From positions 1,920,001 to 1,984,000 of the forward strand of contig CAXXVZ010000003.1 of assembly GCA_963678065.2 (NCBI GenBank): a stretch of DNA of 64,000 bases. The letters are read 5' to 3'. Position 1 is the first letter of the stretch; every line of letters begins with the position of its first letter. A program made the position numbers and the translations under genes. The notes under the pieces are model-generated. The model made no database searches. It saw nothing but the letters and a program-made list of their open reading frames with translations, and was not told the origin of the DNA. Below, piece by piece: positions 977 through 17,961 of the stretch. Source of the stretch: Treponemataceae bacterium. GTDB taxonomy: Bacteria; Spirochaetota; Spirochaetia; Treponematales; Rectinemataceae.

Positions 977-1093
977 CTTTCTTACCCTCCTGGGTTGGTG
1001 ATCTGTGACAAACATACAGGAGGGAACATTAGGGAAGAGACAGAACAGGATTAAAAAACTCCAATGAAGGCGGGGCGTGGCTCGTGCTCGCGA

Positions 1094-2593
1094 TCAATCG
1101 ACCGCAGCACCGGAGTCGGCCGCAGGGAAGCTCAGCGTGAATATGGCGCCGCCATCGTCGGCGTTCCGGGCCGTCGCATCTCCCGAGTGGAGCCGCATGA
1201 TCGATCGCGCCATGCTGAGGCCGATGCCAAAACCCTCCCCGACGGCCGTCGTGCCCCGGTAGAATCTGTCGAATATCTTCTCGCGCTCATCTTCCGGGAT
1301 GCCGGGACCATGATCGCGGACCTGAAGCCTCGCGGCGGCACCATCCTCTCCCGCCGCGATTTCGACCGTACCATTTTCCGGAGAATGATCGATCGCATTT
1401 TCGACGAGAGCCGCGAGGACCTGCGCCACCTTGTCGCGGTCGCATACCGTCCGGACTTCCTTCCCGGCGATGATCTCGACCCGCACATTTTTCGCCAGCG
1501 CCATCGCGCGGAAATCCTCCACGGCGGACTCGACGAAAGCGGAGAGGGAGAGTTCCTCCATCTTCAATTCCACCTGTCCGGCGTCGAAGCGGGCGAGGAC
1601 AAGCATCCTGTTGACGAGACGGGCCATGCGGTCGACTTCTTCGAGGTTGCTTTCGAGTGTCTGCTCATACTCCTCGCGGGACCGGACCCGTTTGAGAGTC
1701 GTTTCGAGCTCGCCCCTGAGCACGGCAAGAGGTGTCTTGAGCTGGTGCGACACGTCGTTGAAAAACCGGGCCTGGGTTTCGAACGAGGCCTCGACCCGAT
1801 CGAGCATGGAGTTGAAGGAAAACGCCAATTCGCGCAATTCCCTGCCAGACGCCGGTATATCGAGCCTCAGGCGGAGATCGTCCTCGCGCACACGGTGAAT
1901 GGCGTCGATCATCCGCTGGATCGGCAGGAGGGTCGATCGTGTCAGGTAATACACGATGCCGCTCGCGATGATGATCACAATGGGAACAAGGGAAAACAGC
2001 AGCAGCGACAGGTTGGAAAGGGATGAGTCGATCCGCCGGAGCGACGAAACTACTTGCACGATATACACGATCGATTCGCGATACCAGACGGGCTGGGTGA
2101 GGACGCGGTAGGACGCGATTGACTCGCCTTTGCCGGGTAACTTGACGGTCTCGAAGATCTTTTCTCCCCCGACGACCCGCTCCCAGGATTCCCGGGACAG
2201 CCTGATCCTCGCGTCTATCCGGGAAGACGCGGCTATGCTGCCGCCGTCGGGTCCGAATATCTGAACCGCCACGGACAGGAAGGGAGGCGTCTCTGCCTGG
2301 TCGTCTACCCACGTGCGCGCAATCCTGGCAAAGTCGTCGGCTTCGATCCGCTTTATCTGCGCTTCGCCGCCGGCCGCGGCCGCGCCCGCGGGCGATAATC
2401 CCTCCGTCTGCCAGTAAGTCTTGATCGATTCGATAATTCCGTCAGCGCGCAAACCGAGAAAGGCGTCGAGATCGTTGTAGAGACGGCGGCCAAAATATCC
2501 GTACAGGGCAAAGGCGAATACGAGGAAAGCGATCGACACGAGTATGAGGTAGAGGAGGGACAGCTTGAAGCGGATCGTCCAGTTTTTCATCAT
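1094..2593 (-). CDS. HAMP-domain sensor histidine kinase (CusS/heavy-metal-sensor-like)
   Basis: Two TMs, HAMP, H-box VSHQLKTPL, N-box ENAIDHS, G-boxes DHGPGI/GFGIGL. Confidence 0.93.
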   Translation of the reverse strand: MMKNWTIRFKLSLLYLILVSIAFLVFAFALYGYFGRRLYNDLDAFLGLRADGIIESIKTYWQTEGLSPAGAAAAGGEAQIKRIEADDFARIARTWVDDQAETPPFLSVAVQIFGPDGGSIAASSRIDARIRLSRESWERVVGGEKIFETVKLPGKGESIASYRVLTQPVWYRESIVYIVQVVSSLRRIDSSLSNLSLLLFSLVPIVIIIASGIVYYLTRSTLLPIQRMIDAIHRVREDDLRLRLDIPASGRELRELAFSFNSMLDRVEASFETQARFFNDVSHQLKTPLAVLRGELETTLKRVRSREEYEQTLESNLEEVDRMARLVNRMLVLARFDAGQVELKMEELSLSAFVESAVEDFRAMALAKNVRVEIIAGKEVRTVCDRDKVAQVLAALVENAIDHSPENGTVEIAAGEDGAAARLQVRDHGPGIPEDEREKIFDRFYRGTTAVGEGFGIGLSMARSIMRLHSGDATARNADDGGAIFTLSFPAADSGAAVD

Positions 2594-2603
2594 GGGATTT
2601 TCA

Positions 2604-3281
2604 TCATGGGATCGACTCGGAGAGACAGTAGCCCCGGCCCCTGACCGTGTGGATCAGGCGGAGAGTGAAACCGGCATCGATCTTGTCCCGGAGATAGCTT
2701 ATGTACACGTCGATGGTGTTGGTGAACGTATCGAAATCGATGCCCCAGACATGCTCGGCGATCATGGTCCGGGTGACGATGCCGCCCTTGTTCAGCATGA
2801 GGTATTCGAGGAGGGCGTATTCCCGGTTCGACAACCTGATCTCGGTTCCGCCCCGATCCACACGCCGGCGCTTCTGGTCGAGCGACAGATCCGCGACGGT
2901 GAGGATCGGGCCATTCCCTCCATTCGCCCTTCGCAGCAAGACACGGATCCGGGCGAGCAGCTCGTCGAAGGCGAAAGGTTTGGTGAGGTAATCGTCGGCG
3001 CCCGAATCGAGACCGGCGACCTTGTCGGCGACCGTATCCCTGGCAGTCAGCATCAGCACGGGGGTCGCGATCCCGCCGGCTCGCAATTCCCGTATGACGG
3101 CAAAGCCGTCCAGCCCCGGCAGCACGAGGTCGAGTAGAATGAGATCGAAGGTTTCCGAGAGAGCGAGAGCGAGGCCGTCATCTCCGCGCCGCGAGATGAC
3201 GGTTTCATAGGACTCCTCGCGCAAGCCGCGTGCGATGAACTCGGCGATTTTCGCCTCGTCTTCCACGGTCAGAACGCGCAT
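2604..3281 (-). CDS. OmpR-family response regulator (CusR-like)
   Basis: Receiver (VEDE, LLDLVLP, KPF) plus winged helix ending HTVRGRGY. Confidence 0.95.
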   Translation of the reverse strand: MRVLTVEDEAKIAEFIARGLREESYETVISRRGDDGLALALSETFDLILLDLVLPGLDGFAVIRELRAGGIATPVLMLTARDTVADKVAGLDSGADDYLTKPFAFDELLARIRVLLRRANGGNGPILTVADLSLDQKRRRVDRGGTEIRLSNREYALLEYLMLNKGGIVTRTMIAEHVWGIDFDTFTNTIDVYISYLRDKIDAGFTLRLIHTVRGRGYCLSESIP

Positions 3282-3287
3282 GAGATG

Positions 3288-3316
3288 ATCGTATCGGTAC
3301 GGGTGGGCAATGACAA
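3288..3316 (-). promoter_or_regulatory. sigma70-type promoter of the RR, probably leaderless
   Basis: TTGTCA-17-TACGAT, then 6 nt to ATG 3281; no SD. Confidence 0.55.
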
Positions 3317-3327
3317 TACGGGAGGGT

Positions 3328-3400
3328 CAACGCGTCGGGGCGCGGCGCTGATCGGGACAGAGGGCGCGACCTGTCGACAGATTTTCATTTTTTCCTATAT
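3328..3400 (+). repeat. Direct repeat copy 1 (left boundary of 8.46-kb cassette)
   Basis: 3349-3400 identical to 11810-11861 (52 bp); CAACGCGTCGGGG 3328-3340 = 11749-11761; contains palindrome CTGTCGACAG. Confidence 0.95.
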
Positions 3401-3443
3401 GATCCCTCAATTCGTTCTCCCGAAGTCAGGGGAAATAGTCAGA

Positions 3444-4919
3444 ATGTACAAAGTGATGCTGGTCGATGACGAACCATGGTCAGTCAAGGGGCTGAAAAAA
3501 ATCCTCCCCTGGCTTGAGTTGGGTTTCGAGGTGACAAGTCTCGAAACCGACTCGGTCGTCGCGTTGGAACATCTCATTGACTTCCCGCCCGACGTCGTTT
3601 TTACCGATATACGCATGCCCGAGATTTCGGGACTTGAGCTTTTGCAGCGCGCCCGGGAAAAAAATCCCGCTCTGCTCTTCGTCATAATAAGCGGGCACAA
3701 CGATTTCGAATACGCTCAGAAGGCTCTGCGCCTGGGAGCAATCGATTATGTGCTAAAACCCATCGATATCGACGAAGGGAAAAAACTGCTGGAACGGCTC
3801 CGCTCTCGTCTCGAAATGAACCGCAGGGAAGCCGACAGGGCGGTTTACGCTCTTCTTTTGGGCGAAGAACAGGAGGCAAGAACCTTCCTCGCCGAACGCG
3901 GTATCGACACTGATGCGGCTGGGTGGATGGTCATAGTCTTCGCCTCATCGAATGAAGAAATACCCGATGAGATGATCCTGCATATTTCGAAGATGCCGGA
4001 TTCGGTTGTGCTGCATCCTGAAACCGGGAAGGTCGTTTTATTGCTGCATGGCCTTATAAATGGATCGGAGATCGAAATGAACATTCGCTCTTGCGCTCTC
4101 CGGATTTCCGGCATTCATATCGGGCTGAGCAATCAGGGGCGCTCTGTCGCGGATATTCCCCATCTTCTCGTCCAGGCAGAACTGGCTTCGGGGGAATACT
4201 TTCTCGGAAGGATGGCAAGAGTTGTTCCTTTCTCGGCCGCTCCGAGTCAGGACCTCGAGAAACTCTTCATGGAAATCAGTTCAGCGCTGGTATCCTATAA
4301 TTATATCCGTGTGTCGCTCCTTATCGACCGGCTCCCGATCATCGTCCGGCGGGAGAAGCTCGGTGTCTACCATGTCGAACTTTTCTGGAATAGATTGTGC
4401 TCGCTCATGGAGGAATGGAAGATAGACACCGCCAAGGAAATCGCTTCCAGACACCTTGACGGAACGGCCATTGTCAAACGGTTCCGGGATATCGAGAATT
4501 TCTGCGCCTATATGAAGCGCCTGGTAGGCCGCGGCGTTACCGAATCACAACTACGAAATACATGCGCCGGTCGTGTCAATCCTCGATTCCTGGACCTCCT
4601 GGATTTCGTGAACGAAAACTATGCCAAGAAACTCAGCCTTGCGACGCTCGCCATGAAGTATCAGCTCAATAAAAGTTATTGCTGTGAATTGTTCAGCAAA
4701 TTTACCAACGGCACTTTCACCGATTATATTACGGAGTTGCGCATGAAGAAGGCCTGGCATCTTCTTCACTCCGGAGAATGCGACACTTCGGAGGTAGCGG
4801 AAATGGTCGGCTACGCCGATTACTTCTATTTCAGCAGAGTTTTCAAGCGCTATTTCCAGATGCCGCCGACTCATATGCGAACAAAGACGAAAAAAGCGAC
4901 CAGCGATGGGCAGGAATGA
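3444..4919 (+). CDS. YesN-like response regulator (receiver + AraC HTH)
   Basis: MYKVMLVDDE...DIRMP...KP receiver; C-terminal VAEMVGYADYFYFSRVFK AraC signature. Confidence 0.93.
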   Translation: MYKVMLVDDEPWSVKGLKKILPWLELGFEVTSLETDSVVALEHLIDFPPDVVFTDIRMPEISGLELLQRAREKNPALLFVIISGHNDFEYAQKALRLGAIDYVLKPIDIDEGKKLLERLRSRLEMNRREADRAVYALLLGEEQEARTFLAERGIDTDAAGWMVIVFASSNEEIPDEMILHISKMPDSVVLHPETGKVVLLLHGLINGSEIEMNIRSCALRISGIHIGLSNQGRSVADIPHLLVQAELASGEYFLGRMARVVPFSAAPSQDLEKLFMEISSALVSYNYIRVSLLIDRLPIIVRREKLGVYHVELFWNRLCSLMEEWKIDTAKEIASRHLDGTAIVKRFRDIENFCAYMKRLVGRGVTESQLRNTCAGRVNPRFLDLLDFVNENYAKKLSLATLAMKYQLNKSYCCELFSKFTNGTFTDYITELRMKKAWHLLHSGECDTSEVAEMVGYADYFYFSRVFKRYFQMPPTHMRTKTKKATSDGQE

Positions 4920-4940
4920 AATGGTGATGGCTTCCGTCCG

Positions 4941-6287
4941 TCACGATCGCGGGGCTTCGTCCTGGTTATACGAAACACGGCTTGCCGGTTTCAAACGTAT
5001 ATTCGCCTCCTCCATCCCCTGTCTCACGGCATCCAGATGTTCCATATGCGACCCATCATAATGCCCCAAGGAAAAGCCATCGACTCCTGTTTCACTCAGG
5101 ATCTTGATGCACCGTCGCAGAATCTCCGGTGTTGCGTTCGGACGTACGGCGAACGCCGCGAGAAGGTCCTTGTCAAAACCTATTCCCCTGCGAATCTTCA
5201 GGAGCGTGTTGCGCTTATATTTAAAATCGTCCTTTGCTCCGGTCTGCTCTGTGTAATCCGAATCACGAACTGAATCCACGTACGACCGTATCGCCCGATA
5301 GTCCAATCCTGCGAGCTCCGGATAGCGAATATAGTTATTGTAGCGGAATTCGACCTTTGGATTTGCTTCTTTGATGCTCTCGTAAATGGTTTTAAAAAGT
5401 TGAGTGATCGACTTCGCCCTGAACTCAAGAAACTGGAAAAGCGATGGGTTCTCAAGCAGGAGTCCGGTCTCCATCAGGTTGCTTCCCATGAGAAGGTGAT
5501 TATCCATCGCTGCGTCGATATTGAAGTGAGACGTTGCGTTGGCCTCGTACTCCAACGCTTTCAAGTCGGTGACGATCTTATCCCAATCATACCCCATCGA
5601 GAGAGCCTTTTTCCTGCAGTGTTCACAAAAACAACCGCCGCGCGTGACACCATAGAGATTCGCAAGTCTGTTTTCCGGATCATTCGTTTTCATCCAGGTA
5701 TCAAAGAACCAGGGAGCCTGAACCGGACTGCCTTCATTGAACAGCATCATACAGGTCTGTATGAAATCTATATCGTGATTCTTGACCGTGTCGTAGAAGA
5801 TGGCCCGCATATATTCGACAACCATCTCGTTGTTGCAGCAGAAAAACTTTTCGAGAATATCCCCATGAATGTTCTTCTGCAGTACTTCCGGGAATTGCCG
5901 CGCTGCGATACTCGTGTCGAAAAAGCTATGTGATATTTCCGCGCCCGTCTTCAGATTGTTTTTACGGGCATTCACGGTCAGCACATCAAGCCAATCTTTA
6001 TCCTTGAGAAATTCCCTCTCGGTGTACATTGGCTTGAGCGGAGTATTCTTGAAATTTCTCTCATCCATTTTGTAATAAATACGGCTGTTTTCAGGAATAT
6101 AGAATTTTCTCTTTTCATTGTGAGTATAGAACAGGCTCGTGAGCGGCCGCTTCTCGTGATGCATGATGCCCACAAGATAAACGCTGCTGACACCACTGCG
6201 TTGCACCAAATTTTCCGTGCATCTCTCGATGCCCTCGTCAGCGATATCCCACGGGTAGAGGCTCGCCGCGATCTCTTTGATTATCAT
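4941..6287 (-). CDS. Uncharacterised TIM-barrel glycoside-hydrolase-like protein
   Basis: 448-aa ORF at the end of a carbohydrate ABC operon; SLYPWD start motif and GCFCEHC Cys cluster typical of GH-like TIM barrels. Confidence 0.6.
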   Translation of the reverse strand: MIIKEIAASLYPWDIADEGIERCTENLVQRSGVSSVYLVGIMHHEKRPLTSLFYTHNEKRKFYIPENSRIYYKMDERNFKNTPLKPMYTEREFLKDKDWLDVLTVNARKNNLKTGAEISHSFFDTSIAARQFPEVLQKNIHGDILEKFFCCNNEMVVEYMRAIFYDTVKNHDIDFIQTCMMLFNEGSPVQAPWFFDTWMKTNDPENRLANLYGVTRGGCFCEHCRKKALSMGYDWDKIVTDLKALEYEANATSHFNIDAAMDNHLLMGSNLMETGLLLENPSLFQFLEFRAKSITQLFKTIYESIKEANPKVEFRYNNYIRYPELAGLDYRAIRSYVDSVRDSDYTEQTGAKDDFKYKRNTLLKIRRGIGFDKDLLAAFAVRPNATPEILRRCIKILSETGVDGFSLGHYDGSHMEHLDAVRQGMEEANIRLKPASRVSYNQDEAPRS

Positions 6288-6313
6288 AACGATGGACTCC
6301 GTCTGTGAAACAG

Positions 6314-6343
6314 GGCCGACGGAAATGATATATTCCGTCGGCC
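6314..6343 (-). other. Intercistronic hairpin after SBP gene (mRNA stabiliser or attenuator)
   Basis: GGCCGACGGAA...TTCCGTCGGCC perfect 11-bp stem. Confidence 0.6.
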
Positions 6344-6350
6344 TATTCTT

Positions 6351-7841
6351 TTACTTTTTTCCGTAGATTTGCTTGTAACTCTTGGCGAATTCGCCTAAAG
6401 ATACCTTGACTTCCGGGTTGCGAAGTAACTCCTGCTGATAGGCTCTGAACTGATTCATCGTGATTTTGCCAGTCACAGCGTCGGTCTCTTTCGCGATGAA
6501 CTCGTCGCCTGTCTTGGACCAGAACGACAACCACGCATCTGATTGTAGGGCATTGAACATGTCGGCCCTACTATTCTTGTTATACAAAACCTTCATTTCT
6601 TCGCGTGTACTCATATTGTAGGATACAGACGCCAGAGGGCTATCGACCTTGGCGAACTCCTGGGTCGCGAAGATGAAAGGTGCGTTGAATGAGGAGGTTA
6701 CTTCCTGCTTGCCTTTTTCGGTAAGAGAAGGGAATCCATCCTTCATTGTCCAATGAATCCCTTCTATGCCGAAGTTAACGAAGTTGTAACTGTCGACTGA
6801 AGCCGTAGCATCGAAAAACTTCAAAATGGCCGCCATCTTTTCGTCCGAAACCTTCGAGGAAATGACCATGCCTCCGAAATATCCCAAGTCGTAATAGTGG
6901 GCGAATCCCTTGGGGCCATCCAGGTAGGGAAGCAGCACTACGCGCGCCTTCGGATCGATCTTTTTAAGCTCCTGCTCAATGCGATACTTGTGCCAGGAAT
7001 TTTTTACCAAAGTCGCGCCCTGACCGCTCAAGAAAATAACTTCCTGCTGGGAACCTTTGATGAGGGCATACTCTTTGGCGATAAGCCCCTTCGCAAAAGA
7101 ATCGCGCAGGTACTCGACATACTGTGCATAATTATCGGTCAGGTACTTATGGATGAGACCGCCATCTTTCGTGTAAACTGGATCTCTGGTACCGAAGGCC
7201 GCTGAAAAATAGCCTTCGGAGGGGCTCATGGAAGGGATCATGCCGATGGTGTCTATCTTGCCGTTGCCGTCGAGATCCCGTTCGCAAACGAGTTTGAGGT
7301 AATTCGTGTACTCTTCCATGGTAGTCGGAGTCTTGAGCCCGAGTCTGTCGAGCCAATCGCCGCGGATAAATACAGCCAAGTCGAGATTGCCGCGAGTTCT
7401 CGGAATGAGATAATTATTGCCGTCTATCATGCTGTAACGCCACGCCATGGAATTGAGCTTTCCGAGATTCGGGTATTTCGAGAAGTCGCCAAGCTCGTCC
7501 GTAAGGTCTTTGAACGCTCCGGCCTTAATCGCCTTCAGAACGCTTGGCCGGGTCATCGACTGCACCTGCATGATATCGGGAAGATCTCCGGATGCAAGAA
7601 TGATATCGATCTTTTCGTTATACATATCCGCGGGTACCCAATCGACCGAGTAATCGACATTGTACATTTTTTCCATCTGCTTCCAGAAATCGCTGTTTTT
7701 GGGCAGAGCGTATTTATACTGGTTGGCAATGCCGCGAATCTTCACGGGGCTGCTTCCCGAATTGCCGACGGCCATGACGAACGCTGGCAGAAGCAGCATA
7801 ACTACAGAAGCCCAAATCGACGATCGAACCATTCTTTTCAT
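6351..7841 (-). CDS. Carbohydrate ABC transporter substrate-binding protein (LplA-like)
   Basis: Signal peptide; ILASGDLPDI, IRGDWLDRLGLKTPTT, DLDGNGKIDT motifs. Confidence 0.92.
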   Translation of the reverse strand: MKRMVRSSIWASVVMLLLPAFVMAVGNSGSSPVKIRGIANQYKYALPKNSDFWKQMEKMYNVDYSVDWVPADMYNEKIDIILASGDLPDIMQVQSMTRPSVLKAIKAGAFKDLTDELGDFSKYPNLGKLNSMAWRYSMIDGNNYLIPRTRGNLDLAVFIRGDWLDRLGLKTPTTMEEYTNYLKLVCERDLDGNGKIDTIGMIPSMSPSEGYFSAAFGTRDPVYTKDGGLIHKYLTDNYAQYVEYLRDSFAKGLIAKEYALIKGSQQEVIFLSGQGATLVKNSWHKYRIEQELKKIDPKARVVLLPYLDGPKGFAHYYDLGYFGGMVISSKVSDEKMAAILKFFDATASVDSYNFVNFGIEGIHWTMKDGFPSLTEKGKQEVTSSFNAPFIFATQEFAKVDSPLASVSYNMSTREEMKVLYNKNSRADMFNALQSDAWLSFWSKTGDEFIAKETDAVTGKITMNQFRAYQQELLRNPEVKVSLGEFAKSYKQIYGKK

Positions 7842-7876
7842 ACCCTTTCCTCCTTGGAAAAAATCATCATTTTAAC

Positions 7877-8755
7877 TCAGCCCTTGACTGAGCCAAGCAT
7901 CACACCTTTCATGAAATATCGTTGCAGGAACGGATACACGACCATGATCGGCAGCATGGCAAGGACGACGGTGGCCATCCTGATTGTTTCGGAAGGCAGA
8001 TCATCTTCCTGCAGGCCTACAGCCAAAGCATTGCCGGATCCTCCGATCGAACCATCGACGAGAAGAGATTTGACATAAACCTGCAGAGTTCTCATCCTGC
8101 TGTCGCTGAGATACATCATGGGCTTAATGTAGACGTTCCAGTGGCCGACCGCGAAGAAAAGGGCCAAAGTCGCGATCGCGGCCGTTGAGAGCGGAATAAT
8201 GACATAGAGAAATATTTTGATATCGGAGCATCCGTCAATCCTGGCGGAATCTTCGAGCTCGGCCGGAATACTGTCGAGGAAACTCCGCGCCACGATGAGG
8301 CTCCACGAGTTTGTCGCTACGGTAAGGATGATTGCCCAATACGTGTTCATGAGCCCGAGCTGCTTCACGAGGAGATAATTCGGGATAAGTCCCGCATCGA
8401 AGAGAAGACCGAAGATCACTATTCCCATTATGATTTTTCGATGCGGCAGGGCGCGTCTCGTCAGACCGTACGCCATCGTGAATGTTACCACTATGTTTAT
8501 GATCGTTCCGACGACAGTAATGTATATCGTACTTTTAAGAGCATCGAGAAAGGACGACGACGAGAGAATGTACCGATAGACGACAAAGGATATTTTTTTC
8601 GGGATGAGGGTAAGGGAAAGAGGGATATACGCCGAAGGATCAGTGAGCGAGACGCTGATTACATACAAAAGCGGAATGATTCCAATTACGGTGGAAAGCG
8701 TCACCACCGTATACGCGACCACATCGATGGGGGAAATCTTCTTTGACACTGTCAT
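7877..8755 (-). CDS. Carbohydrate ABC permease (LplC-like)
   Basis: EAA loop ELEDSARIDG; C-terminal YPFLQRYFMKGVMLGSVKG. Confidence 0.93.
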   Translation of the reverse strand: MTVSKKISPIDVVAYTVVTLSTVIGIIPLLYVISVSLTDPSAYIPLSLTLIPKKISFVVYRYILSSSSFLDALKSTIYITVVGTIINIVVTFTMAYGLTRRALPHRKIIMGIVIFGLLFDAGLIPNYLLVKQLGLMNTYWAIILTVATNSWSLIVARSFLDSIPAELEDSARIDGCSDIKIFLYVIIPLSTAAIATLALFFAVGHWNVYIKPMMYLSDSRMRTLQVYVKSLLVDGSIGGSGNALAVGLQEDDLPSETIRMATVVLAMLPIMVVYPFLQRYFMKGVMLGSVKG

Positions 8756-8756
8756 A

Positions 8757-9692
8757 TCAATAAATCCCTTCCTGACCAAGGCTTTTTATTATTCTGTTGG
8801 ACAGAACGACCATGATGAGGCCGACAATGCTTTTACAGATTCCCACGGCGACACCGATGCTGATATTGCCTTGGACAACGCCCTGAGTGTAGGCGTATGT
8901 GTCGAATATCTCCGAAACGGATTTTACATAAGGATTGCTCATCAGCAAAATCTGTTCAAAACTGACATCCATGATGCGACCCATGCGAAGGATGAACAGC
9001 ACGACGATAGTCGGAAAAAGCGAAGGCAGGGTTATCTTGAGCATTTGCTGCAGACGGGAAGCTCCGTCCATAATCGCGGCCTCATAGAGCGTCGGGTCGA
9101 TCTGCGAGATGGCGGCCAGAAAGATGATTGTGCCCCAACCGACTTCTTTCCAGATATTCTGAAGAAGCACGATCCACCAGAACAAGTGTGGATTCGAAAG
9201 GAACGACACAGCGTTGCCACCGGCATGAGTTATGATCTTATTGATCAGACCGATGTCGATGGATAATAAGAAGAAAGTAAGTCCGGTTATGACGACCCAC
9301 GACATGAAGTGGGGCATATACAGGAGCGTTTGATGAACTCGCCGCACTTTTTCGCTTTTGATCTCATTGAGCAAAAGCGCCAGAATAATCGGCGCCGGGA
9401 AAAAGAACACGATATTCATGAGGCTGATGGCTATCGTGTTCCTCAACATCGCGAAGAAGTATTTCCCCTGGAAGAATTCCATGAAATTCTTGAACCATAC
9501 GAATTTGCTTCCAAGCATGCCCTTATATGGATTGAAGTCTTGAAAAGCCAAAACCAAACCCCAAATAGGACCTATTTTGAAAATTAGAAAATAGACAAGA
9601 CCAGGAAGAATGAGAAAATATATCTGTCTATAATAAAAATATTTTCGCCACCTTGATTTCGATCCGATTACCGGTGTCAGTTGTGTCTGCAA
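8757..9692 (-). CDS. Carbohydrate ABC permease (LplB-like), TTG start
   Basis: LYEAAIMDGA EAA motif; PHFMSWV; SD GGGGAGG before TTG. Confidence 0.9.
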   Translation of the reverse strand: MQTQLTPVIGSKSRWRKYFYYRQIYFLILPGLVYFLIFKIGPIWGLVLAFQDFNPYKGMLGSKFVWFKNFMEFFQGKYFFAMLRNTIAISLMNIVFFFPAPIILALLLNEIKSEKVRRVHQTLLYMPHFMSWVVITGLTFFLLSIDIGLINKIITHAGGNAVSFLSNPHLFWWIVLLQNIWKEVGWGTIIFLAAISQIDPTLYEAAIMDGASRLQQMLKITLPSLFPTIVVLFILRMGRIMDVSFEQILLMSNPYVKSVSEIFDTYAYTQGVVQGNISIGVAVGICKSIVGLIMVVLSNRIIKSLGQEGIY

Positions 9693-9961
9693 ACCGTATC
9701 CTCCCCTTTCCCAAGTCACGATCTCTTGTAGGACGATTAACAATAGGTCCAGGATCACGGAATCGTACATGGACTGGGTTTGGAAAAAATGTGTGGGTTT
9801 TGGAAATGACTGTAAAACTGCCCCCGCGGCAAATCGCACTATCGCGTTTGAGGTCTCCTTGCCCTGGCAATTTGCAGAAAGAACTTTACATCGCCGGGGA
9901 AAAAAGCCATACTGAACAGAATCTGGCGTAAGAATGAGTCGGACCGGGAAGAAAACCTTTC

Positions 9962-11746
9962 ATGAAAACCATCCTTTCCCACCGCCCTCATACACTCAAG
10001 GGACAAATAATCCTGCTCTGTGCCACCTTTTCCGTAGCCATCATTCTGATGCAGGCTGTTTTCGTTCTTTCATTTATCAAAACCGCGACCAAAAACTACG
10101 AAATCTTGCTCAAGAGTACGGTGGAGCAGTTGTCCGAAAACATGAACTCCCTCGCGGGAAGGCTGCAGGACGTCGGGAACCTATTGACATTCAACAATTC
10201 CACCCAGCAGATTTTTCGCCCTGAAGCCCTTAGCACCAAAATGCAGATCCTCCGCACTACGGAGATCACCATCGATACGATCAAGTCGTCAAACACGAGC
10301 ATCGACGCAATTATTCTGACGGATTTCAAACAACTCTACTTGGGCGACGCGAGCAATGACAACTTCTGGATCCTGAACCGAGTACGGGACCTGTTAGTCA
10401 ATAAAAAGCTTAATACAGCCAACCTACGCAACCTTCATTTCATTGACCCTTCCGACGGAAGTATGCGTTTTGTCTATATAATTCCTTCAAATTCCGAAAA
10501 CGGCAATCAGCTACAATTCTATACTCTGATAATACATAACCTCAACTCCTTAAGGAAAGCCGCCGAAGGACTCGGAGATGCGGCCGGTACTTATATTCTG
10601 TACTACGGCATGAGCCGGGACTCTTACCTCCTGCGTAGTTGGCCTCACGGTGAAAAGTTGGACTCTGGATTCGATCCAGAGTCATTCAAATCCGGATTTA
10701 GCAGAGTCGGCGGCAACATCATCTATACCCAACTCGTCGATATGTATGGGCTGACAATAATTGGTATGGTACCTACTTCAGAGCTGCGGCGTGCTTTAGT
10801 TTCGGTTCAGCTTCCCAATACGATCATGGTCGTATTCTTCATTATTTTCATCATCGTCGAAGGATGGGTACTTATCCATAACATCACAGCGCCTATTTCC
10901 TATATGGTCGGCTTTATCGACTCTCTTAGCGCCAGCGACGCCAACGAAAAAAGGATACAGTTCCGCCATAAAAACGAAATCGGTCTCCTCGCAAACGACA
11001 TCAATAACTTGCTGGACAAGATCAAGATAATGACGAGCAACGTCGCCAGGACGAATCAGCAACTCTATCAAGCCAAGCTTGCCAGGCAACAGGCGGAACT
11101 CGCAGCCTTCCAGAGCCAAGTCAACCCACATTTCCTGTATAACACCTTGGATTGCGTTCGCAGCATGGCCATTAGCCAAGACATCCCGGAAATTGGTATG
11201 ATCGCTGCGGCGATGGTCAAAATTTTCCGCTATAGCATCAAAGAGGGAGACATTGTACTTCTCAGCGACGAACTCGCTTGCATCGAGCAGTATCTGACCA
11301 TCATGAAGATCAGGCATCCTGATCGATTTTCTTTCTTTTTTGAAGTCGATGATGCGATCCGATCCGCCCTCGTTCCCAAGATGGTACTTCAACCCCTTGT
11401 GGAAAACGCAATGCTCCACGGTCTCGAGCAGAAACGGGGAAAGGGGGCTCTTCACATACGAGGGCGTCTGGAAAAAGATGCATCCGTAGTTCTTGAGGTC
11501 GAGGACAATGGGAAAGGTATGTCTCCCGGGAGCCTCGAGAACTTGAGAAGCACGATTGCCGCACCGTTTGAAGAGGAATGGACTGATGCTTCTCATTCGG
11601 CGACGAAAAGCATAGGACTCATCAATATCGAAAAACGGATTAGGTTGACCTACGGCGCTGGTTACGGAATTTCCGTCTTCCCTGGGATCGAAGGGGGTTT
11701 ACGCGTTTCGTTTCGGATTCCCTACCGTAAGGCTGAAAGCGGTTAA
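9962..11746 (+). CDS. YesM/LytS-type sensor histidine kinase
   Basis: Two TMs; QSQVNPHFLYNTL; LQPLVENAMLHG; DNGKGM; IGLINI. Confidence 0.95.
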   Translation: MKTILSHRPHTLKGQIILLCATFSVAIILMQAVFVLSFIKTATKNYEILLKSTVEQLSENMNSLAGRLQDVGNLLTFNNSTQQIFRPEALSTKMQILRTTEITIDTIKSSNTSIDAIILTDFKQLYLGDASNDNFWILNRVRDLLVNKKLNTANLRNLHFIDPSDGSMRFVYIIPSNSENGNQLQFYTLIIHNLNSLRKAAEGLGDAAGTYILYYGMSRDSYLLRSWPHGEKLDSGFDPESFKSGFSRVGGNIIYTQLVDMYGLTIIGMVPTSELRRALVSVQLPNTIMVVFFIIFIIVEGWVLIHNITAPISYMVGFIDSLSASDANEKRIQFRHKNEIGLLANDINNLLDKIKIMTSNVARTNQQLYQAKLARQQAELAAFQSQVNPHFLYNTLDCVRSMAISQDIPEIGMIAAAMVKIFRYSIKEGDIVLLSDELACIEQYLTIMKIRHPDRFSFFFEVDDAIRSALVPKMVLQPLVENAMLHGLEQKRGKGALHIRGRLEKDASVVLEVEDNGKGMSPGSLENLRSTIAAPFEEEWTDASHSATKSIGLINIEKRIRLTYGAGYGISVFPGIEGGLRVSFRIPYRKAESG

Positions 11747-11748
11747 CA

Positions 11749-11861
11749 CAACGCGTCGGGGTGCAGTGCGGCGCGGCACGGCACGGCACGGCACGGCACG
11801 GCACGGCGATGATCGGGACAGAGGGCGCGACCTGTCGACAGATTTTCATTTTTTCCTATAT
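11749..11861 (+). repeat. Direct repeat copy 2 (right boundary), interrupted by a (GCACG)6 microsatellite at 11776-11805
   Basis: 52-bp identity with 3349-3400; six exact GCACG units preceded by degenerate GTGCA GTGCG GCGCG. Confidence 0.95.
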
Positions 11862-11864
11862 AAT
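11835..11864 (+). promoter_or_regulatory. sigma70-type promoter in the repeat, leaderless start of the H-domain gene
   Basis: TCGACA-18-TATAAT, then 6 nt to ATG 11871; copy 1 reads TCGACA-18-TATGAT (3374-3403). Confidence 0.65.
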
Positions 11865-11870
11865 TTTCTC

Positions 11871-12641
11871 ATGATATCCTATTCCGTCGGGGAAGCGGTC
11901 TCCGATATTCTCGCCTCGCTCACAGGCAAGGCGCTCTCCGGGGCCGGGTTCATCGTCGTCGTTTCGCCGGCGGTGAGAGTGCTGTACCGCGAGGGATGGA
12001 GAAGATTGACGGGCCTGTGCCGGGAGGCGGGAGCCCGATCGGTCATTCCGGTCGACTCGGGAATTCCGGCCTTCGCCAGCGCCTGCGCCGCATCGATCAG
12101 AGAGCGCGGCCGAGGGGTCCACATCCTTTCGGCCTGCCCTGCCGCGTCGGACTTTCTCGCCCTCGAATTTCCCGGCCTCGCTCCGTGCGTTCTCGGAGTC
12201 GCCTCGCCTATGACTATTTCCTCCCGCGCCGCGCTGTACTCGGCAGGCATTCCCGGGGGCACCGCCATCGCGATAAGCCCCTGCTCGCTCAAGAAGCGCG
12301 AAGAGGCCAGAGTCGATTTCGACATGAGGGTAGTCCAGGTTCATTCCTTCATCGAGCGGCTCGGAGCCGCCGGTCAGAGGCTCTCGGCATATCCGGAATC
12401 GGACTACGACCTGCCCTTTCCCCTCCGCAGCAGAGAGGATTGCGGTATCGCCTGCGCGGTCGCAAAGGAGCTTGCCGGGTCTGAGCGCCTGAACATCTCG
12501 ACACACAAGGCGGAGGGAGCAGCGGCCGCAAGAGCGGTGATGCAGGGCATCCTCGCACAGAGGCGGACGGGCAGGAATGATTCGACAGTCGTCGAGCTGA
12601 CCTTCTGCGAGGGCGGCTGCCTGCGCGACCCGGTATTGTAG
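11871..12641 (+). CDS. Stand-alone [FeFe]-hydrogenase large-subunit (H-domain)-like protein, 256 aa
   Basis: P1-like ILSACP, ASPM, P2-like ISPCSLKKRE, P3-like ELTFCEGGC in the correct order. Confidence 0.75.
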   Translation: MISYSVGEAVSDILASLTGKALSGAGFIVVVSPAVRVLYREGWRRLTGLCREAGARSVIPVDSGIPAFASACAASIRERGRGVHILSACPAASDFLALEFPGLAPCVLGVASPMTISSRAALYSAGIPGGTAIAISPCSLKKREEARVDFDMRVVQVHSFIERLGAAGQRLSAYPESDYDLPFPLRSREDCGIACAVAKELAGSERLNISTHKAEGAAAARAVMQGILAQRRTGRNDSTVVELTFCEGGCLRDPVL

Positions 12642-12650
12642 AAGTGCCGG

Positions 12651-13328
12651 TCAGATCCGCAGCGCGTCGCGGAGCCACGCGACAGCCTCGTCCATCCCTT
12701 CGCCCGTCTTTGCCGACACGAAGATGACGGGCGCGTCGGGATTCAGAGCCCGGACGCCGGCGGTGAAGTAGTCCCTGTCGAACTCCATAACCCCGGCGAG
12801 GTCCATCTTGTTGACGATAACGACGCTGGCGCTCTCAAAGGCCGGGGGATACTTGTAGGGTTTGTCGCTCCCCTCCGTGGTCGAAACGAGGAGGATGCGT
12901 TTTTTCTCCCCGAGATAGAAGGACGAGGGGCAGATCAGGTTCCCGACGTTCTCCACGAAGACCAGCGTCGCGTCGCCGGGCAACCCGGGGAGGACAGCCT
13001 CGATCTGCCCTGCGTCGATGTGGCACATGCCGTGAGTGTTGATCTGCAGGGCGGGTATCCCGAGCGAGCGAAGTCTGACCGCGTCGATGTCCGACTCGAG
13101 GTCAGCCTCGATTACGGCACAGGCCAGGGACGGGACGGATCGCGCGAGCATGCGTGCGAGTCCGGCGATGAACGTGGTCTTGCCCGCGCCGGGGCTGCCG
13201 AGCAGGTTCACGAGGGCGCGGCCGCGGGCCTCGAAACGGCCATACACGCGGGCGGCGATCTCGTTGTTGTCGCGGAAAATGTCCTTTCGAACCTCGACTC
13301 GGGTCCGCGCGGGCCTGTCTCCGATCAT
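12651..13328 (-). CDS. hypB: Hydrogenase nickel-incorporation GTPase HypB
   Basis: GSPGAGKTT, CHIDA, ENVGNLICP, TEGSDKPYKYP, NKMD, SAKTGEG. Confidence 0.95.
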   Translation of the reverse strand: MIGDRPARTRVEVRKDIFRDNNEIAARVYGRFEARGRALVNLLGSPGAGKTTFIAGLARMLARSVPSLACAVIEADLESDIDAVRLRSLGIPALQINTHGMCHIDAGQIEAVLPGLPGDATLVFVENVGNLICPSSFYLGEKKRILLVSTTEGSDKPYKYPPAFESASVVIVNKMDLAGVMEFDRDYFTAGVRALNPDAPVIFVSAKTGEGMDEAVAWLRDALRI

Positions 13329-13687
13329 GGTTTCTCCTCCGCCCCGTATTCTATGTCCATTGTATCGATGTAGAATTCGGTCCCGATTTTCGTGGCCCGC
13401 CCTTCACCGCCGCAGGAGGGACAGGTGAAACTGAAGGGCTTCCGCACAAAAAGGGCATCGCAGACTGTGCAACGCATCTTCGGTTGCACGTAGGTGAACT
13501 CGAGTTTCGCCCCCTCGGCTATCGTGCCCAGGGCGTACCGGTCGAAATAGAACTGGATGGAATCACCGCCATACCCGCTGTGCTCTCCGACGACAAGGGC
13601 GATTCGGCATATCCGGGCCGCACCCATGGCCTTTGCCCTCTGAAGCACCTGCCCGAGCATGGCTTCGGTGACCGAGGATTCGTGCAT
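13325..13687 (-). CDS. hypA: Hydrogenase maturation nickel metallochaperone HypA
   Basis: N-terminal MHE; two CxxC (CTVC, CPSC); ATGA overlap with hypB. Confidence 0.95.
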   Translation of the reverse strand: MHESSVTEAMLGQVLQRAKAMGAARICRIALVVGEHSGYGGDSIQFYFDRYALGTIAEGAKLEFTYVQPKMRCTVCDALFVRKPFSFTCPSCGGEGRATKIGTEFYIDTMDIEYGAEEKP

Positions 13688-13816
13688 CGCGCTTTTGCCT
13701 CAGGCCCCTGTCCCGGCGGACAGAACCAAGGAACGATATACGGGACCCATCATGCTCGCCGGTGTACCGGATCAGGTTTCGATTGTCAACTACAGAGATC
13801 GGCGGAAACAAGCCGA

Positions 13817-14554
13817 TCACCGCACATCGCCGGCGGGGAGAGCGGACGAGGGGAAAGGCTCAAGATCCGGACGAAAGGCTTTTTTCTGAAGGTGGGCAAA
13901 GATCTCCGGATTGGGATTGGCGCTGGCTGCCAGGAACCAGACTGTCCTTCCAGTCTCGTCGCGGTCGTCGATATCCGCGCCCGAGTCGAGGAGGATGTCG
14001 AGAACAGCGGGATCGGGATTGGATTCCGCTGCGAACATGAAAGCCGTCCATCCGTAGCTTGTCTTGTCTCCGATCCGCGCACCAGCCCTGACGAGCGAAG
14101 CGATGACTGCCGGATTGGCATTGTATCGGGCCGCGAGCATGAGCGGAGTCGTGCCGTATTCGTCGCTGCGGGAGAGGTCAGCGCCCCGCTTTGCGAGAAA
14201 CTCGAGGACCGCGGGGTTCTCATTCCAGCAGGCGAGCCTCGCAGCCGTCCAGCCAGAGCCTGGGCTGTAGTCGATGCGTGCGCCAGCATCGAGGAATACT
14301 TTGGTGACGGCCGGATCGGGGTTGAACCAGGCCGCGTACATGAGCGGAGTCAGTCCGTTCGGGTCGGGGCTGTCGGGGGAGTAACCTCTGGAGAGAAGGA
14401 ACATCGCCTGTTCGGGGCTGCCTCTTCGGGCGACATCGTGTATGTCGGGCGCGGGCTGCGCGTGCGCGAAACCGCCGGAACAGAGGCAAAGGACGATGGC
14501 CGCAGCGAGTGTGCGGATCACTCTGAAGTGTTTCAGATCGAATTGTCCCTTCAT
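13817..14554 (-). CDS. Secreted ankyrin-repeat protein
   Basis: Signal peptide ending AHA; repeated G-T-PLM-AA-N-NP-V-L-GA units. Confidence 0.88.
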   Translation of the reverse strand: MKGQFDLKHFRVIRTLAAAIVLCLCSGGFAHAQPAPDIHDVARRGSPEQAMFLLSRGYSPDSPDPNGLTPLMYAAWFNPDPAVTKVFLDAGARIDYSPGSGWTAARLACWNENPAVLEFLAKRGADLSRSDEYGTTPLMLAARYNANPAVIASLVRAGARIGDKTSYGWTAFMFAAESNPDPAVLDILLDSGADIDDRDETGRTVWFLAASANPNPEIFAHLQKKAFRPDLEPFPSSALPAGDVR

Positions 14555-14558
14555 GACT

Positions 14559-15482
14559 TCATTCGTATTCGTCGCCGCAGACCCTGTTCCGTCCCGTCTC
14601 TTTTGCGTGGTACATGGCTGAATCAGCCCGCCCGAGTAGGGACTCGATACTATCCCCAGGGCGCCCCATGGAGACCCCGACACTCACGGTGATGGCAAAG
14701 GCGATGCCGGCATAGATCACGGGAGAATTCTCGAGGGCCGAACGGAGTCTCTCGGCTGTGGCAAAGGCGACATCTATCCCGGAATGAGGAAGGACAAGGG
14801 CAAATTCCTCGCCGCCGAGTCTTCCCCAATAGTCCATATCGCGAAGCTCGAGGGATGACAGCGCGCGGGCAACCATCCTCAGGGCCTCGTCGCCGGCCGC
14901 GTGGCTATAAGTGTCGTTCACTGCCTTGAAATGGTCCACATCGAACATGATCACCGCGACATCCTCGACATCCGCATCCCGGGAAGCCATGGTCTCCTCG
15001 AAAAGCTCGAAGAACCAGGTCCGGTTCTTCATACCGGTGAGAGAATCAGTGTGCGCCGCGAGCCAGAGGGCCTGTTCGCTGTTCTTCAGTTTGGTCACGG
15101 ACTCTTCGAGCTGCGCGACCATGGAATTGAATGAAGCGGAAAAATCCCCCATGAACTCGACCTTCTGGCTGAAATCGCCCGCGGCAATCGCCTGGGTCTG
15201 CCAGGTCAGATGCCGGAGAGAAGCCTGAAGGGCCTTGAGCGCACCGGGGAGGAAGCCTCTGAGAGCGATAGGATACGCGAGATCGCCGGAAGCGGTCGCC
15301 ATCACGGCGCCCCGGATCTCGACGATGGCTCTGCGAAGGAACAGATAGTCTTCGTTTCCCTCGAGACCCTCGGGGATCGTATCCTGCACTGTCCGGGAGG
15401 TCACAAGTTCGACGAGCGAAGCCAGCGCCGCGGTGATGCGCGCATCAACTCCTTCCCCGCCTCCAGTCTCGCTTTCGGGCAT
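14559..15482 (-). CDS. Diguanylate cyclase (HAMP-like + GGDEF domain)
   Basis: TDSLTG, DVDHFKAVND, RLGGEEF, RADSAMYHAKETGRN. Confidence 0.93.
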   Translation of the reverse strand: MPESETGGGEGVDARITAALASLVELVTSRTVQDTIPEGLEGNEDYLFLRRAIVEIRGAVMATASGDLAYPIALRGFLPGALKALQASLRHLTWQTQAIAAGDFSQKVEFMGDFSASFNSMVAQLEESVTKLKNSEQALWLAAHTDSLTGMKNRTWFFELFEETMASRDADVEDVAVIMFDVDHFKAVNDTYSHAAGDEALRMVARALSSLELRDMDYWGRLGGEEFALVLPHSGIDVAFATAERLRSALENSPVIYAGIAFAITVSVGVSMGRPGDSIESLLGRADSAMYHAKETGRNRVCGDEYE

Positions 15483-16200: not shown

Positions 16201-16273
16201 GGGGAATTAGCTCAGTTGGTAGAGCGATAGGTTCGCAATCTATAGGTCGGGGGTTCGAATCCCCCATTCTCCA
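16201..16273 (+). tRNA. tRNA-Ala(CGC)
   Basis: Cloverleaf GGGGAAT/ATTCTCC-A with G3:U70; anticodon loop TT-CGC-AA; T-loop TTCGAAT; CCA not encoded. Confidence 0.96.
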
Positions 16274-16350
16274 CAATGAATTACGTGATAGAGTGCCCTT
16301 GGAAAGAGTACTATGACTTGACAGTGTGACTTTCCGGGGGCGTTCCATTT

Positions 16351-16556
16351 ATCGCCACGAAACCTGAATCTACAGGCGAGTTCTTCTCCTTCACCCTCTT
16401 CAAGCGTACGGGCAAGGACGGCAAGGTCGTCATCTATGCCCGTCTCATCGAAAAGGCGACGGGCACGATCCCCGCCCAGCGGTCCACCGGCACTGACGAC
16501 GAGCGCCTGGCCGCGGCCAGGGCGGGCCGATTCCTCGTCGAGCTTCCCCTCGCCAT
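16351..16556 (+). pseudogene. N-terminal remnant of probable tyrosine integrase (start codon ATG>ATC)
   Basis: FSFTLFKRTGKDGKVVIYARLIEKATGTIPAQRSTGTDDERLA resembles an arm-binding N-terminus; paralogous to 18067-18309; no catalytic domain. Confidence 0.55.
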
Positions 16557-16565
16557 AGCATGCGC

Positions 16566-17732
16566 CTATGATCTAAAAATTTCGCTAGCGGATCCCCATG
16601 GAACGAGAACCACATCCTTCCATTTCATGCCGCGCTCGCCGGCATACACTAACATGCAATCTGTAGGTGTAGCTCCCGAGTAACGCATCCACGACTCAAG
16701 TCCAGAAACGAGCTCAGGAGCGAAGGTCTTCCCCGACTTGATCTCCACGGCTTTCGCTCTCTGCCCATCCAGGAAGACTATATCGACCTCAACGCCCGTG
16801 CTGTCTCTCCAGAAATAGATGTCCGGATCGAGGCCCTGGCTGTAGCGTGCTTTTAATAGCTCCGCCACGATGAAGGACTCGAAGATATTTCCGCGGTTGG
16901 GATGAACGAAGAGTTCCTCGGCGCTTTTTATTCCAAGGAGCCGACTAGCCAGACCGGTATCCACGAAGTAGAGCTTCGGGCTCTTCACGAGGCGCTTGCC
17001 ATAGTTCTCATGGTAGGGTCTGAGCAGATAGACGATGCCGCTCGTCTCGAGCACCGAGAGCCAGGCTCTAGCCGTGTTATGGGTCAGCCCGCAATCGAGT
17101 GCCAAAGCGCTCAGGTTGAGAAGCTGCCCGACGCGCGACGCGCACATCTTCACGAAGGTCTGGAATTGTCCTAGATCTTTGACGTTGATGATGGATCGCA
17201 CATCGCGCTCGACGTAGGAAGCGATGTAGCTCGTATACCAATCGTAGGGGCTGACCTCGCGGTCGAAGAGAGGCGGATAGAAGCCTTTCACGATCGCCAC
17301 GAAGGGATCGGTGGCTAGTTTCTTCGAAGAGCGGAGCTCTTCTGTCGAGAATGGAAGGAGCGTAAGGAAGGCAGCCCGTCCGGCGAGGGACTCGGCGACT
17401 CCCGAGAGAAGTCCGAATTGCTGGGAACCCGTCACGATGTATTTTCCGGGCTTAGGATCGACATCGACAGCGGTCTTGAGATACGTGAATATCTCGGGCA
17501 CTGTTTGAGCCTCGTCGAGGATGAGGCCATCGCGATAGCTATCCAGAAGCCCTCGCGGGTCTTCCTTAGCGAGACGAGCGATATCGGGATCCTCCAGGGA
17601 TAGGTACGGCTTATCGGGGAAAGTAGCGCGCGCTAGCGTCGTTTTCCCGGATTGCCTGGGGCCGGTGATACAAAGGACCGGGAATCCCTTCTCGAGGCGC
17701 TTTAGGGTCTTGGCAGCTTGTCGAGCTATCAT
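16566..17732 (-). CDS. AAA+ ATP-binding protein (AAA_14 + DUF4143-type C-terminus)
   Basis: GPRQSGKTT, ILDEAQ, TGS, ESLAGR, KSPKLYFVDTGL, EVDIV...VEIKS PD-(D/E)xK-like end. Confidence 0.92.
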   Translation of the reverse strand: MIARQAAKTLKRLEKGFPVLCITGPRQSGKTTLARATFPDKPYLSLEDPDIARLAKEDPRGLLDSYRDGLILDEAQTVPEIFTYLKTAVDVDPKPGKYIVTGSQQFGLLSGVAESLAGRAAFLTLLPFSTEELRSSKKLATDPFVAIVKGFYPPLFDREVSPYDWYTSYIASYVERDVRSIINVKDLGQFQTFVKMCASRVGQLLNLSALALDCGLTHNTARAWLSVLETSGIVYLLRPYHENYGKRLVKSPKLYFVDTGLASRLLGIKSAEELFVHPNRGNIFESFIVAELLKARYSQGLDPDIYFWRDSTGVEVDIVFLDGQRAKAVEIKSGKTFAPELVSGLESWMRYSGATPTDCMLVYAGERGMKWKDVVLVPWGSASEIFRS

Positions 17733-17738
17733 CCCATC

Positions 17739-17792
17739 AGTATATCGTTGTTTTGCAAATTGTCAATTGTGCTGACAATTTGCAAAACAACG
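17739..17792 (-). promoter_or_regulatory. Promoter TTGACA-16-TATACT overlapped by a perfect 20-bp inverted repeat
   Basis: CGTTGTTTTGCAAATTGTCA (17746-17765), 7-nt loop, TGACAATTTGCAAAACAACG (17773-17792); -10 is 6 nt from ATG. Confidence 0.8.
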
Positions 17793-17961
17793 TACGCCCT
17801 GGGACCTCTGAACTGTAACTGAAACTGCGACTGGAAAGGTACTCCGAGTGTAACTAATAGAACCAACTCCAATCAAAAGTTGGGGCCACAAGTCCCGGCT
17901 ACACCAGCACTTCAAAACTACAATCTATTACATAATATAGACTTATACAATTTTGTAGTCC

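What the first reader, a model, noticed from the sequence alone, without database searches (positions are those of the whole stretch)
3328..11864. Integrase-free 8.46-kb carbohydrate cassette bounded by a promoter-bearing 52-bp direct repeat, with its two-component pair split across the ends
Seen: 3349-3400 and 11810-11861 are identical, and a shared 13-mer lies upstream of each. The interior is visibly AT-richer than the flanks. The repeat holds the palindrome CTGTCGACAG and a sigma70-like promoter (TCGACA-18-TATAAT/TATGAT), so both the first cassette gene and the H-domain gene get a promoter. Removing one repeat plus the interior leaves a normal divergent cusR-like/H-domain pair. The YesN-like RR is at the left end and the YesM-like HK at the right end, on the same strand; circularising at the repeat places HK directly before RR, the usual yesM-yesN order. 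Inference: Campbell-type integration of a circular catabolic module at a promoter, with no recombinase in cis. It may be an excisable or amplifiable cassette type.
Basis: partly seen in the sequence, partly recalled or inferred. Interest (0 to 1): 0.78.

Follow-up and report, generated by a model that had tools for sequence, protein, structure and literature searches.

The report
Sugar cassette inserted with duplicated promoter
A six-gene block, likely for sugar uptake and likely foreign, sits between two copies of a neighbouring host gene's predicted promoter with no mobility enzyme nearby, and it is most likely an old one-off insertion of a known kind rather than an active mobile cassette.

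Summary
The repeat is real: 52 bp exact (about 76 bp imperfect), two copies in the genome, bracketing an AT-richer block (response regulator RR, glycoside-hydrolase-like gene GH, sugar ABC genes, YesM-type kinase HK). One strain's contig spans the block and its right junction, so misassembly is unlikely. The right copy looks like the native promoter of the H-domain gene (same boxes in two relatives); the left copy is a duplicate in front of RR. The mobility claims found no support: depth inside matches the flanks, none of 8 runs laid showed a credible empty site, and neither relative with a similarly oriented H-domain gene has cusR beside it. The split HK/RR is not diagnostic: 7 of 10 homologous loci with HK have HK-ABC-GH-RR without bracketing repeats; none has HK directly before RR. 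A circular donor stays possible (about 45%): both ends are trimmed to a 45-nt would-be spacer, and the nearest ordered homologue has HK on the RR side. Best reading: insertion with long target duplication plus promoter capture, a known kind. This scan reported such insertions before on other DNA.

The parts
3328..3403 (+). Left copy of the duplicated block (exact 52-mer at 3349-3400); promoter-like TCGACA-18-TATGAT; inferred derived copy that would drive RR
3404..3446 (+). 43-nt cassette-specific leader of RR with a purine-rich ribosome-binding-like stretch
3447..4919 (+). YesN-like response regulator (receiver + AraC HTH), 490 aa; convergent with GH here, co-oriented in 16 of 16 homologous loci where RR directly follows GH
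4941..6287 (-). Unnamed protein with a predicted glycoside-hydrolase-like barrel fold, 448 aa; longest of 120 listed homologues (others 426-442 aa)
6351..7841 (-). Likely sugar-binding protein of the ABC transporter (no Pfam or NCBIfam hit; assigned from position and from 43-66% homologues between permeases and GH)
7877..8779 (-). Carbohydrate ABC permease (UgpE/MalG-like)
8757..9839 (-). Carbohydrate ABC permease (UgpA/MalF-like); true start probably about 40-60 codons into this ORF
9962..11746 (+). YesM-like histidine kinase (PF06580 + HATPase), 594 aa; stop codon 2 nt before the right duplicated block
11749..11864 (+). Right copy of the duplicated block (exact 52-mer at 11810-11861; GGCAC microsatellite of strain-variable length); TCGACA-18-TATAAT ends 6 nt before the H-domain ATG; inferred original host promoter
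11871..12641 (+). Host gene: short stand-alone [FeFe]-hydrogenase H-domain-like protein (256 aa), next to hypB/hypA
2604..3281 (-). Left flank: CusR-like response regulator with its own promoter-like site (3316-3288); partly deleted in the strain of run X7

Best explanation
An 8.35-kb block of six genes, likely for sugar uptake and likely acquired from another lineage, lies between two copies of a roughly 76-bp stretch that is predicted to be the promoter of the neighbouring H-domain gene, and it most likely arrived once, without its own recombinase, by insertion with long target duplication. Shown: the repeat and its uniqueness, the base-composition contrast, no recombinase domain in the window, the block at near-identity in other strains, and the same promoter boxes before the H-domain gene in two relatives. 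Inferred: the insertion opened the chromosome just behind the -10 box and repair copied the promoter, so the H-domain gene kept its promoter and the outward-facing RR gained one; this would explain why the insertion was kept. Inferred: the kinase senses a sugar and RR switches on the permease-binding protein-hydrolase operon. Inferred: the block has since been inherited vertically and the two copies are drifting apart. Whether the donor DNA was a circle cut between HK and RR (about 45%) or a linear piece whose end genes had been flipped (about 55%) is not settled.
For: Unique 52-bp repeat, the size class of published cases (46-47 bp, unique in the genome; PMC2853133 passages). TCGAC(A/C)-17/18-(T/C)ATA(A/G)T lies 6-9 nt before the H-domain start in the window, G016 and G445, while the repeat regions found no meaningful blastn match in 42 cassette-homologue loci. 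GH was found in 0 of 68 other family genomes and 1 of 400 order genomes and 0 of 400 phylum genomes; many homologues that carry names are from Bacillota. All 8 runs laid have near-identical pieces of the interior, with divergence like the flanks (X5 31/7955 inside, 16/1509 and 20/1089 outside; X14 37/1433 inside, 13/485 outside). X3 depths: repeat 69.8, interior 36.6, flanks 41.2 and 35. One 37,485-bp X7 contig runs through 3339-15000, which implies that its two copies no longer share an exact 31-mer (inference). It is the only short non-tRNA two-copy repeat with a clearly AT-richer interior among the 48 isolated pairs listed of 258 blocks (my reading of the table).
Against: No empty site was found, so target duplication is inferred, not shown. 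In the two relatives the H-domain gene is preceded by pirin (G016) or trpB2 (G445), and the G016 cusR orthologue (78%) is preceded by another gene, so the left edge may be a rearrangement breakpoint rather than a clean insertion point. The promoters are consensus matches only; outside the boxes the relatives' upstream DNA aligns poorly. Contigs with 31-nt words cannot show circles or empty sites through a repeat longer than 31 nt and drop rare variants. X1 and X3 may be the window's own source. In X5 a joint 3144-to-11794 at depth 5.1 and an interior depth (10.3) below the right flank (about 16) could mean that a minority strain lacks the interior.
Confidence: 0.6

Rival explanations
1. The block was already in place, and the repeat arose during later local rearrangements (flipping of RR and HK, arrival of cusRS) that copied the H-domain promoter in front of RR. 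It is then a promoter duplication, not an insertion scar.
For: RR is inverted relative to 16 of 16 homologues and HK relative to the 7 upstream cases. GH and RR both carry longer C-termini than their nearest homologues, suggesting a new junction. The H-domain gene itself is inverted relative to hypAB compared with 3 more distant genomes. The left neighbour differs in every genome seen, and cusRS is partly deleted in X7.
Against: The copies sit exactly at both composition boundaries, 2 nt behind the HK stop and 43 nt before the RR start; a later duplication would not need to coincide with both edges.
Confidence: 0.15
2. One reading: a circular module carrying the promoter integrates by Campbell-type crossover and still excises or amplifies through the repeats, like the H47 island or UCSs.
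For: Joining the ends puts HK before RR: 161 nt apart with one repeat copy, 45 nt without. In a Spirochaetia MAG the accession order is GH (N-truncated), RR, one unknown gene, HK (HUZ18086/87/89), and this lineage is sister to the window's in both trees. The H47 island excises through imperfect direct repeats without a recombinase (PMC5426353, part 1 of 5 read).
Against: Interior depth equals the flanks and the repeat has twice their depth in X3. No credible empty site in 8 runs. 0 of 10 loci with HK have HK directly before RR. No GH relative in viral contigs and only hits below 26% identity in plasmids. Contig breakpoints suggest that the copies have diverged in other strains.
Confidence: 0.12
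3. The repeats are attL/attR of a site-specific integrative element that lost its integrase or used one in trans (genomic islet, CIME-like; CIME label recalled and from an earlier scan note).
For: 16 tyrosine recombinases in the genome. tRNA-linked islands with 36-64-bp repeats occur in this genome, and integrase-like stubs lie beside tRNA-Ala 4.5 kb away.
Against: The repeat is not in a tRNA or an Rfam family. No integrase remnant was seen among the cassette ORFs, which fill the interior. It has two copies only, so it is not the repeated site of the integron-like array reported elsewhere in this genome.
Confidence: 0.12
4. Assembly artefact at a collapsed repeat.
For: Short-read contigs of X1 and X3 break at the repeat.
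Against: A single X7 contig spans the left copy, the interior and the right junction. A second assembly has GH, RR and HK at 98-99% identity with the same longest-contig length of 838 kb.
Confidence: 0.01

Closest known systems
Insertion with long target duplication (Furuta, Abe and Kobayashi 2010, PMC2853133; passages read; the original Nobusato 2000 paper not seen)
   Same: Insert under 20 kb, duplication over 30 bp and unique in the genome, lower GC, no mobility genes.
   Different: Cargo is a sugar ABC/two-component module, not a restriction-modification system; the duplicated target is a predicted promoter that would serve a cargo gene; no empty-site genome found.
Microcin H47 genomic island of E. 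coli (PMC5426353; abstract, introduction and start of methods read)
   Same: Similar size (13 kb), no recombinase of its own, imperfect direct repeats made of several homology blocks.
   Different: H47 excision, circles and re-integration were detected by PCR; none is shown here, and the depth data argue against frequent events.
Unconventional circularizable structures (definition read in the review PMC8401462; the primary paper was not held)
   Same: No recombinase; direct repeats at both ends.
   Different: UCSs have extensive repeats, resistance cargo and demonstrated circles; this repeat is short and appears host-derived.
YesM/YesN-regulated carbohydrate ABC clusters of Bacillota (homologous loci L024, L026-L028, L042, L050)
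   Same: Same six gene families; HK next to the first permease and RR next to GH.
   Different: There all six genes are co-oriented and no repeat brackets them; here HK and RR each face against the operon.

Membership tests
Insertion with long target duplication | Insert shorter than 20 kb | tested here: met
   8345 bp between the duplicated blocks
Insertion with long target duplication | Direct repeat longer than 30 bp, not a dispersed repeat | tested here: met
   52 bp exact, 2 copies at up to 13 mismatches
Insertion with long target duplication | No mobility gene in or beside the insert | tested here: met
   only PF00589 and PF00239 were searched genome-wide, other families only through Pfam on 18 ORFs of 1-20,621
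Insertion with long target duplication | Empty-site genome with one copy of the target | tested here: inconclusive
   Not found in 8 runs or among 68 family genomes; no same-genus genome is held
Insertion with long target duplication | Restriction-modification cargo (selection criterion of the published sets) | tested here: not met
   Cargo is a sugar ABC/two-component module; filed as the same rearrangement type, not as an RM element
H47-like island / UCS | Recombinase-free, bounded by direct repeats | tested here: met
H47-like island / UCS | Detectable excised circle and empty site | not testable with these tools
   Only 31-mer contigs were laid; they cannot resolve junctions through the repeat
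H47-like island / UCS | Copy-number change or strain-to-strain presence/absence | tested here: inconclusive
   Depth inside equals flanks in X1, X3, X7; one ambiguous hint in X5
Site-specific integrative element / islet | Integrase in cis | tested here: not met
Site-specific integrative element / islet | att core in a tRNA or other conserved gene end | tested here: not met
   Repeat is intergenic; only tRNA-Ala in the window
Campbell-type integrated circle | Related loci with the un-permuted order (HK directly before RR) | tested here: inconclusive
   0 of 10 loci with HK, but the nearest homologue's contig could not be viewed and the next nearest has HK beyond RR

The most novel reading that the evidence does not exclude
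A catabolic module travelled as a recombinase-free circle, was opened in the 45-nt spacer between its kinase and regulator genes, and was fixed because the insertion duplicated a host promoter that replaced the regulator's lost read-through: circular permutation plus promoter capture in one event, still reversible through the repeats and tying sugar sensing to the control of a hydrogenase-related gene.
Probability: 0.2. Interest if true: 0.55.

Novelty: new member of a known kind. Interest (0 to 1): 0.3.

Why it matters
It is a clean example of how a foreign regulatory module could be wired into a host in a single step: the target duplication itself would supply the missing promoter. It extends insertion with long target duplication beyond the restriction-modification cargo for which it was described. 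It does not define a new mobile element, and it is a single case in this genome.

Tried and rejected
Dispersed repeat: rejected. Known RNA or tRNA site: none at the repeat. G005 and G024 first looked syntenic by spacing, but their cusR and hypB homologues are separated by unrelated genes, with no H-domain gene or repeat. The X5 joint 3144-to-11794 was considered as an empty site and set aside: its 17 intervening letters equal the first 17 of the 23 at the X7 left junction, and the interior contig only merges with it at 11810, so it is probably the left copy mis-placed (inference, not re-tested). Runs with small word shares (X17-X19) were laid as candidate empty-site strains; they proved to be low-coverage holders of interior pieces. 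Viral contigs and plasmids hold no close GH relative. No close HK orthologue in 400 class genomes or in the genomes behind L025, L029, G016, G445, G709. GH has no PDB sequence match, so its substrate is unknown; fold matches are GH42/GH35/PgaB-like barrels at 9-15% identity. The RR tree is the quick version. Rows dropped before counting: L030-L036 (22-27% identity) and L075, L076 (31-34%). Literature: 'circularly permuted' + 'gene cluster' + 'circular intermediate' + 'horizontal transfer' gave 0 papers; two searches gave listings only, none on this case. No supplements were read.
Full report
Observation. The two 52-mers at 3349-3400 and 11810-11861 are identical, and the genome (5.27 Mb, 5 contigs) has no other copy at up to 13 mismatches. 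The shared block is really longer: 3328-3403 against 11749-11864, the right one expanded by a GGCAC microsatellite that is 30 nt shorter in runs X5 and X7 and differently shortened in X14. The interior has GC 0.487 against a genome median of 0.604 and GC3 of 0.58-0.63 against 0.71-0.85. It holds a YesN-like RR, an unnamed 448-aa protein, a likely binding protein, two sugar-type permeases and a YesM-like HK. The unnamed protein models as a barrel (mean pLDDT 76) whose best structural matches are GH42/GH35 galactosidases and PgaB-like domains at 9-15% identity, so 'glycoside-hydrolase-like' is fair and the substrate is unknown. The host appears to be a spirochaete (inferred from the labels of nearest homologues and an earlier scan note). 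No tyrosine recombinase lies in the window and no serine resolvase domain was found in the genome.

Is it real and is it mobile? Eight of 24 listed runs were laid, all as assembled contigs. In X7, a strain with 175 differing letters over 11.7 kb, one 37,485-bp contig runs from the left copy to 15000, so misassembly is unlikely. In X3 the repeat has depth 69.8, the interior 36.6 and the flanks 41.2 and 35; in X1 the interior has 32.5 against 23.5 and 30.7. There is no amplification signal; X1 and X3 may be the source samples. All 8 runs hold interior pieces, diverged about as much as the flanks, so the block is shared across strains at one place where coverage allows a view. Contig breakpoints suggest about 38-39 exact shared bases in X5 and X14 and fewer than 31 in X7 (inference), i.e. 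independent drift of the copies. Against my reading: X5 shows a joint from 3144 to 11794 at depth 5.1, and an interior depth of 10.3 where the right flank reaches about 16. I read the joint as the X7-type left junction mis-placed, but the depth gap is unexplained. Contigs cannot reveal rare circles.

Where the repeat comes from. The H-domain gene has orthologues in 2 of 68 family genomes and 5 of 400 order genomes. In the two family members the same promoter-like boxes precede it: TCGACA-17-CATAGT 9 nt before the start in G016 and TCGACC-18-CATAAT 8 nt before it in G445, against TCGACA-18-TATAAT 6 nt before it here. A weak genome-wide excess of -10-like hexamers 6-7 nt before ATG (61 and 44 against 12-35 at most other distances, 45 at one) fits leaderless genes. 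So the right copy is most likely the host's own promoter and the left copy a duplicate, ending exactly at the -10 box in front of RR's 43-nt leader. The proposed empty site is not seen: pirin precedes the gene in G016 and trpB2 in G445, G016's cusR orthologue has another upstream neighbour, and cusRS is partly deleted in X7.

The split two-component pair. Of 40 loci with a GH homologue at 53% identity or more, 16 have RR directly after GH, all co-oriented, and 10 include HK. Seven have HK upstream of the permeases, giving HK-permease-permease-binding protein-GH-RR on one strand. These are about four independent lineages, since L042 equals L043 and L026, L028 and L050 are near-identical; they fall in two separate HK clades. 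No exact repeat of 16 nt or more brackets them. Three have HK downstream of RR (L055 facing it; L064 and L070 following it). None has HK directly before RR. So a split pair is the common state of this family and does not by itself show circular permutation. What is peculiar here is that both end genes are flipped. GH is the longest of 120 listed homologues and RR is 7 aa longer than its nearest relative, consistent with a new GH/RR tail-to-tail junction.

Evidence that keeps the circle alive. The cassette-specific DNA ends 2 nt after the HK stop and starts 43 nt before the RR start; joined, that is a 45-nt spacer. One cut in such a spacer explains both tight ends. In the sister lineage the accession order GH, RR, unknown, HK puts HK on the RR side (orientation not seen). 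From an L055-like order, one RR inversion plus a circular permutation gives the window; from the common order, two in-place inversions do. GH-to-RR spacers in homologues are often of similar length, which explains the 43-nt leader under either route. The nearest homologues (GH 80%, HK 60%, RR 57%) share a 19,755-bp contig length but could not be viewed. I put the circle at about 45%.

Mechanism. Most likely a one-off, recombinase-free insertion just behind the -10 box of the H-domain promoter, with copying of about 76 bp of target during repair (inferred). The H-domain gene keeps its promoter, RR gains one, and the module is retained (inferred). Low-frequency deletion between short direct repeats is expected in any such structure (recalled; shown for H47 in PMC5426353) but is not evidence of a dedicated cassette system. 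The pattern does not recur: among the 48 isolated two-copy pairs listed from 258 blocks, the other short repeats around AT-richer DNA that I could interpret are tRNA ends (the remaining pairs were not opened one by one).

Comparison. The anatomy meets the size, uniqueness and no-mobility-gene criteria of insertion with long target duplication (PMC2853133), lacks the restriction-modification cargo, and has no empty-site genome. It resembles H47 and UCSs without their demonstrated circles. Earlier scan notes describe the same kind of event in other genomes, one with a duplicated -10 box; I took the label from them and checked it against the paper, but did not check their cases. Verdict: real, a new member of a known kind, interest 0.3.

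Noticed in passing
window 16201-18240: tRNA-Ala(CGC) at 16201-16274 is followed by two 88%-identical 245-bp blocks (16279-16524, 17996-18240) around a DUF4143 ATPase. Each block reads like the N-terminus of an integrase (by eye it resembles the start of the tRNA-Thr island ORF at C3:1892843), and the second is preceded by a tRNA 3'-end-like sequence: probably a decayed tRNA-targeted islet. The blocks occur only here in the genome.
   Followed up: partly
window 11871-13687; L088-L090: The 256-aa H-domain-like protein keeps cysteines at positions resembling the three H-cluster motifs (motifs recalled) and lies directly after hypA-hypB on the same strand in 3 more distant genomes, 2 of them with an Ech-type subunit gene adjoining; here and in G445 it is inverted with its own promoter. 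A possible Fe-S helper for NiFe hydrogenase maturation.
   Followed up: partly
window 17746-17792: Perfect 20-bp inverted repeat with a 7-nt spacer behind the DUF4143 gene.
   Followed up: no
window 1000-3338 in run X7: The X7 strain has almost no cover over cusS and carries deletions in cusR (2786-2916, 3145-3338), so the left flank is labile while the cassette and hyp genes persist.
   Followed up: no
window 3850-11740 in run X5: Interior depth 10.3 against about 16 in the right flank and 15.1 over the start of RR: a minority strain may lack most of the interior.
   Followed up: partly
L041, L044, L048, L052, L067, L025, L029: The GH-like family often occurs as several paralogues per locus (up to five in L048) and has no Pfam family over cut-off: an uncharacterised barrel enzyme family shared by spirochaetes and Bacillota.
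   Followed up: partly
window 6313-6344: 12-bp hairpin with a T-rich tail between the binding-protein and GH genes, a possible attenuator within the operon.
   Followed up: no
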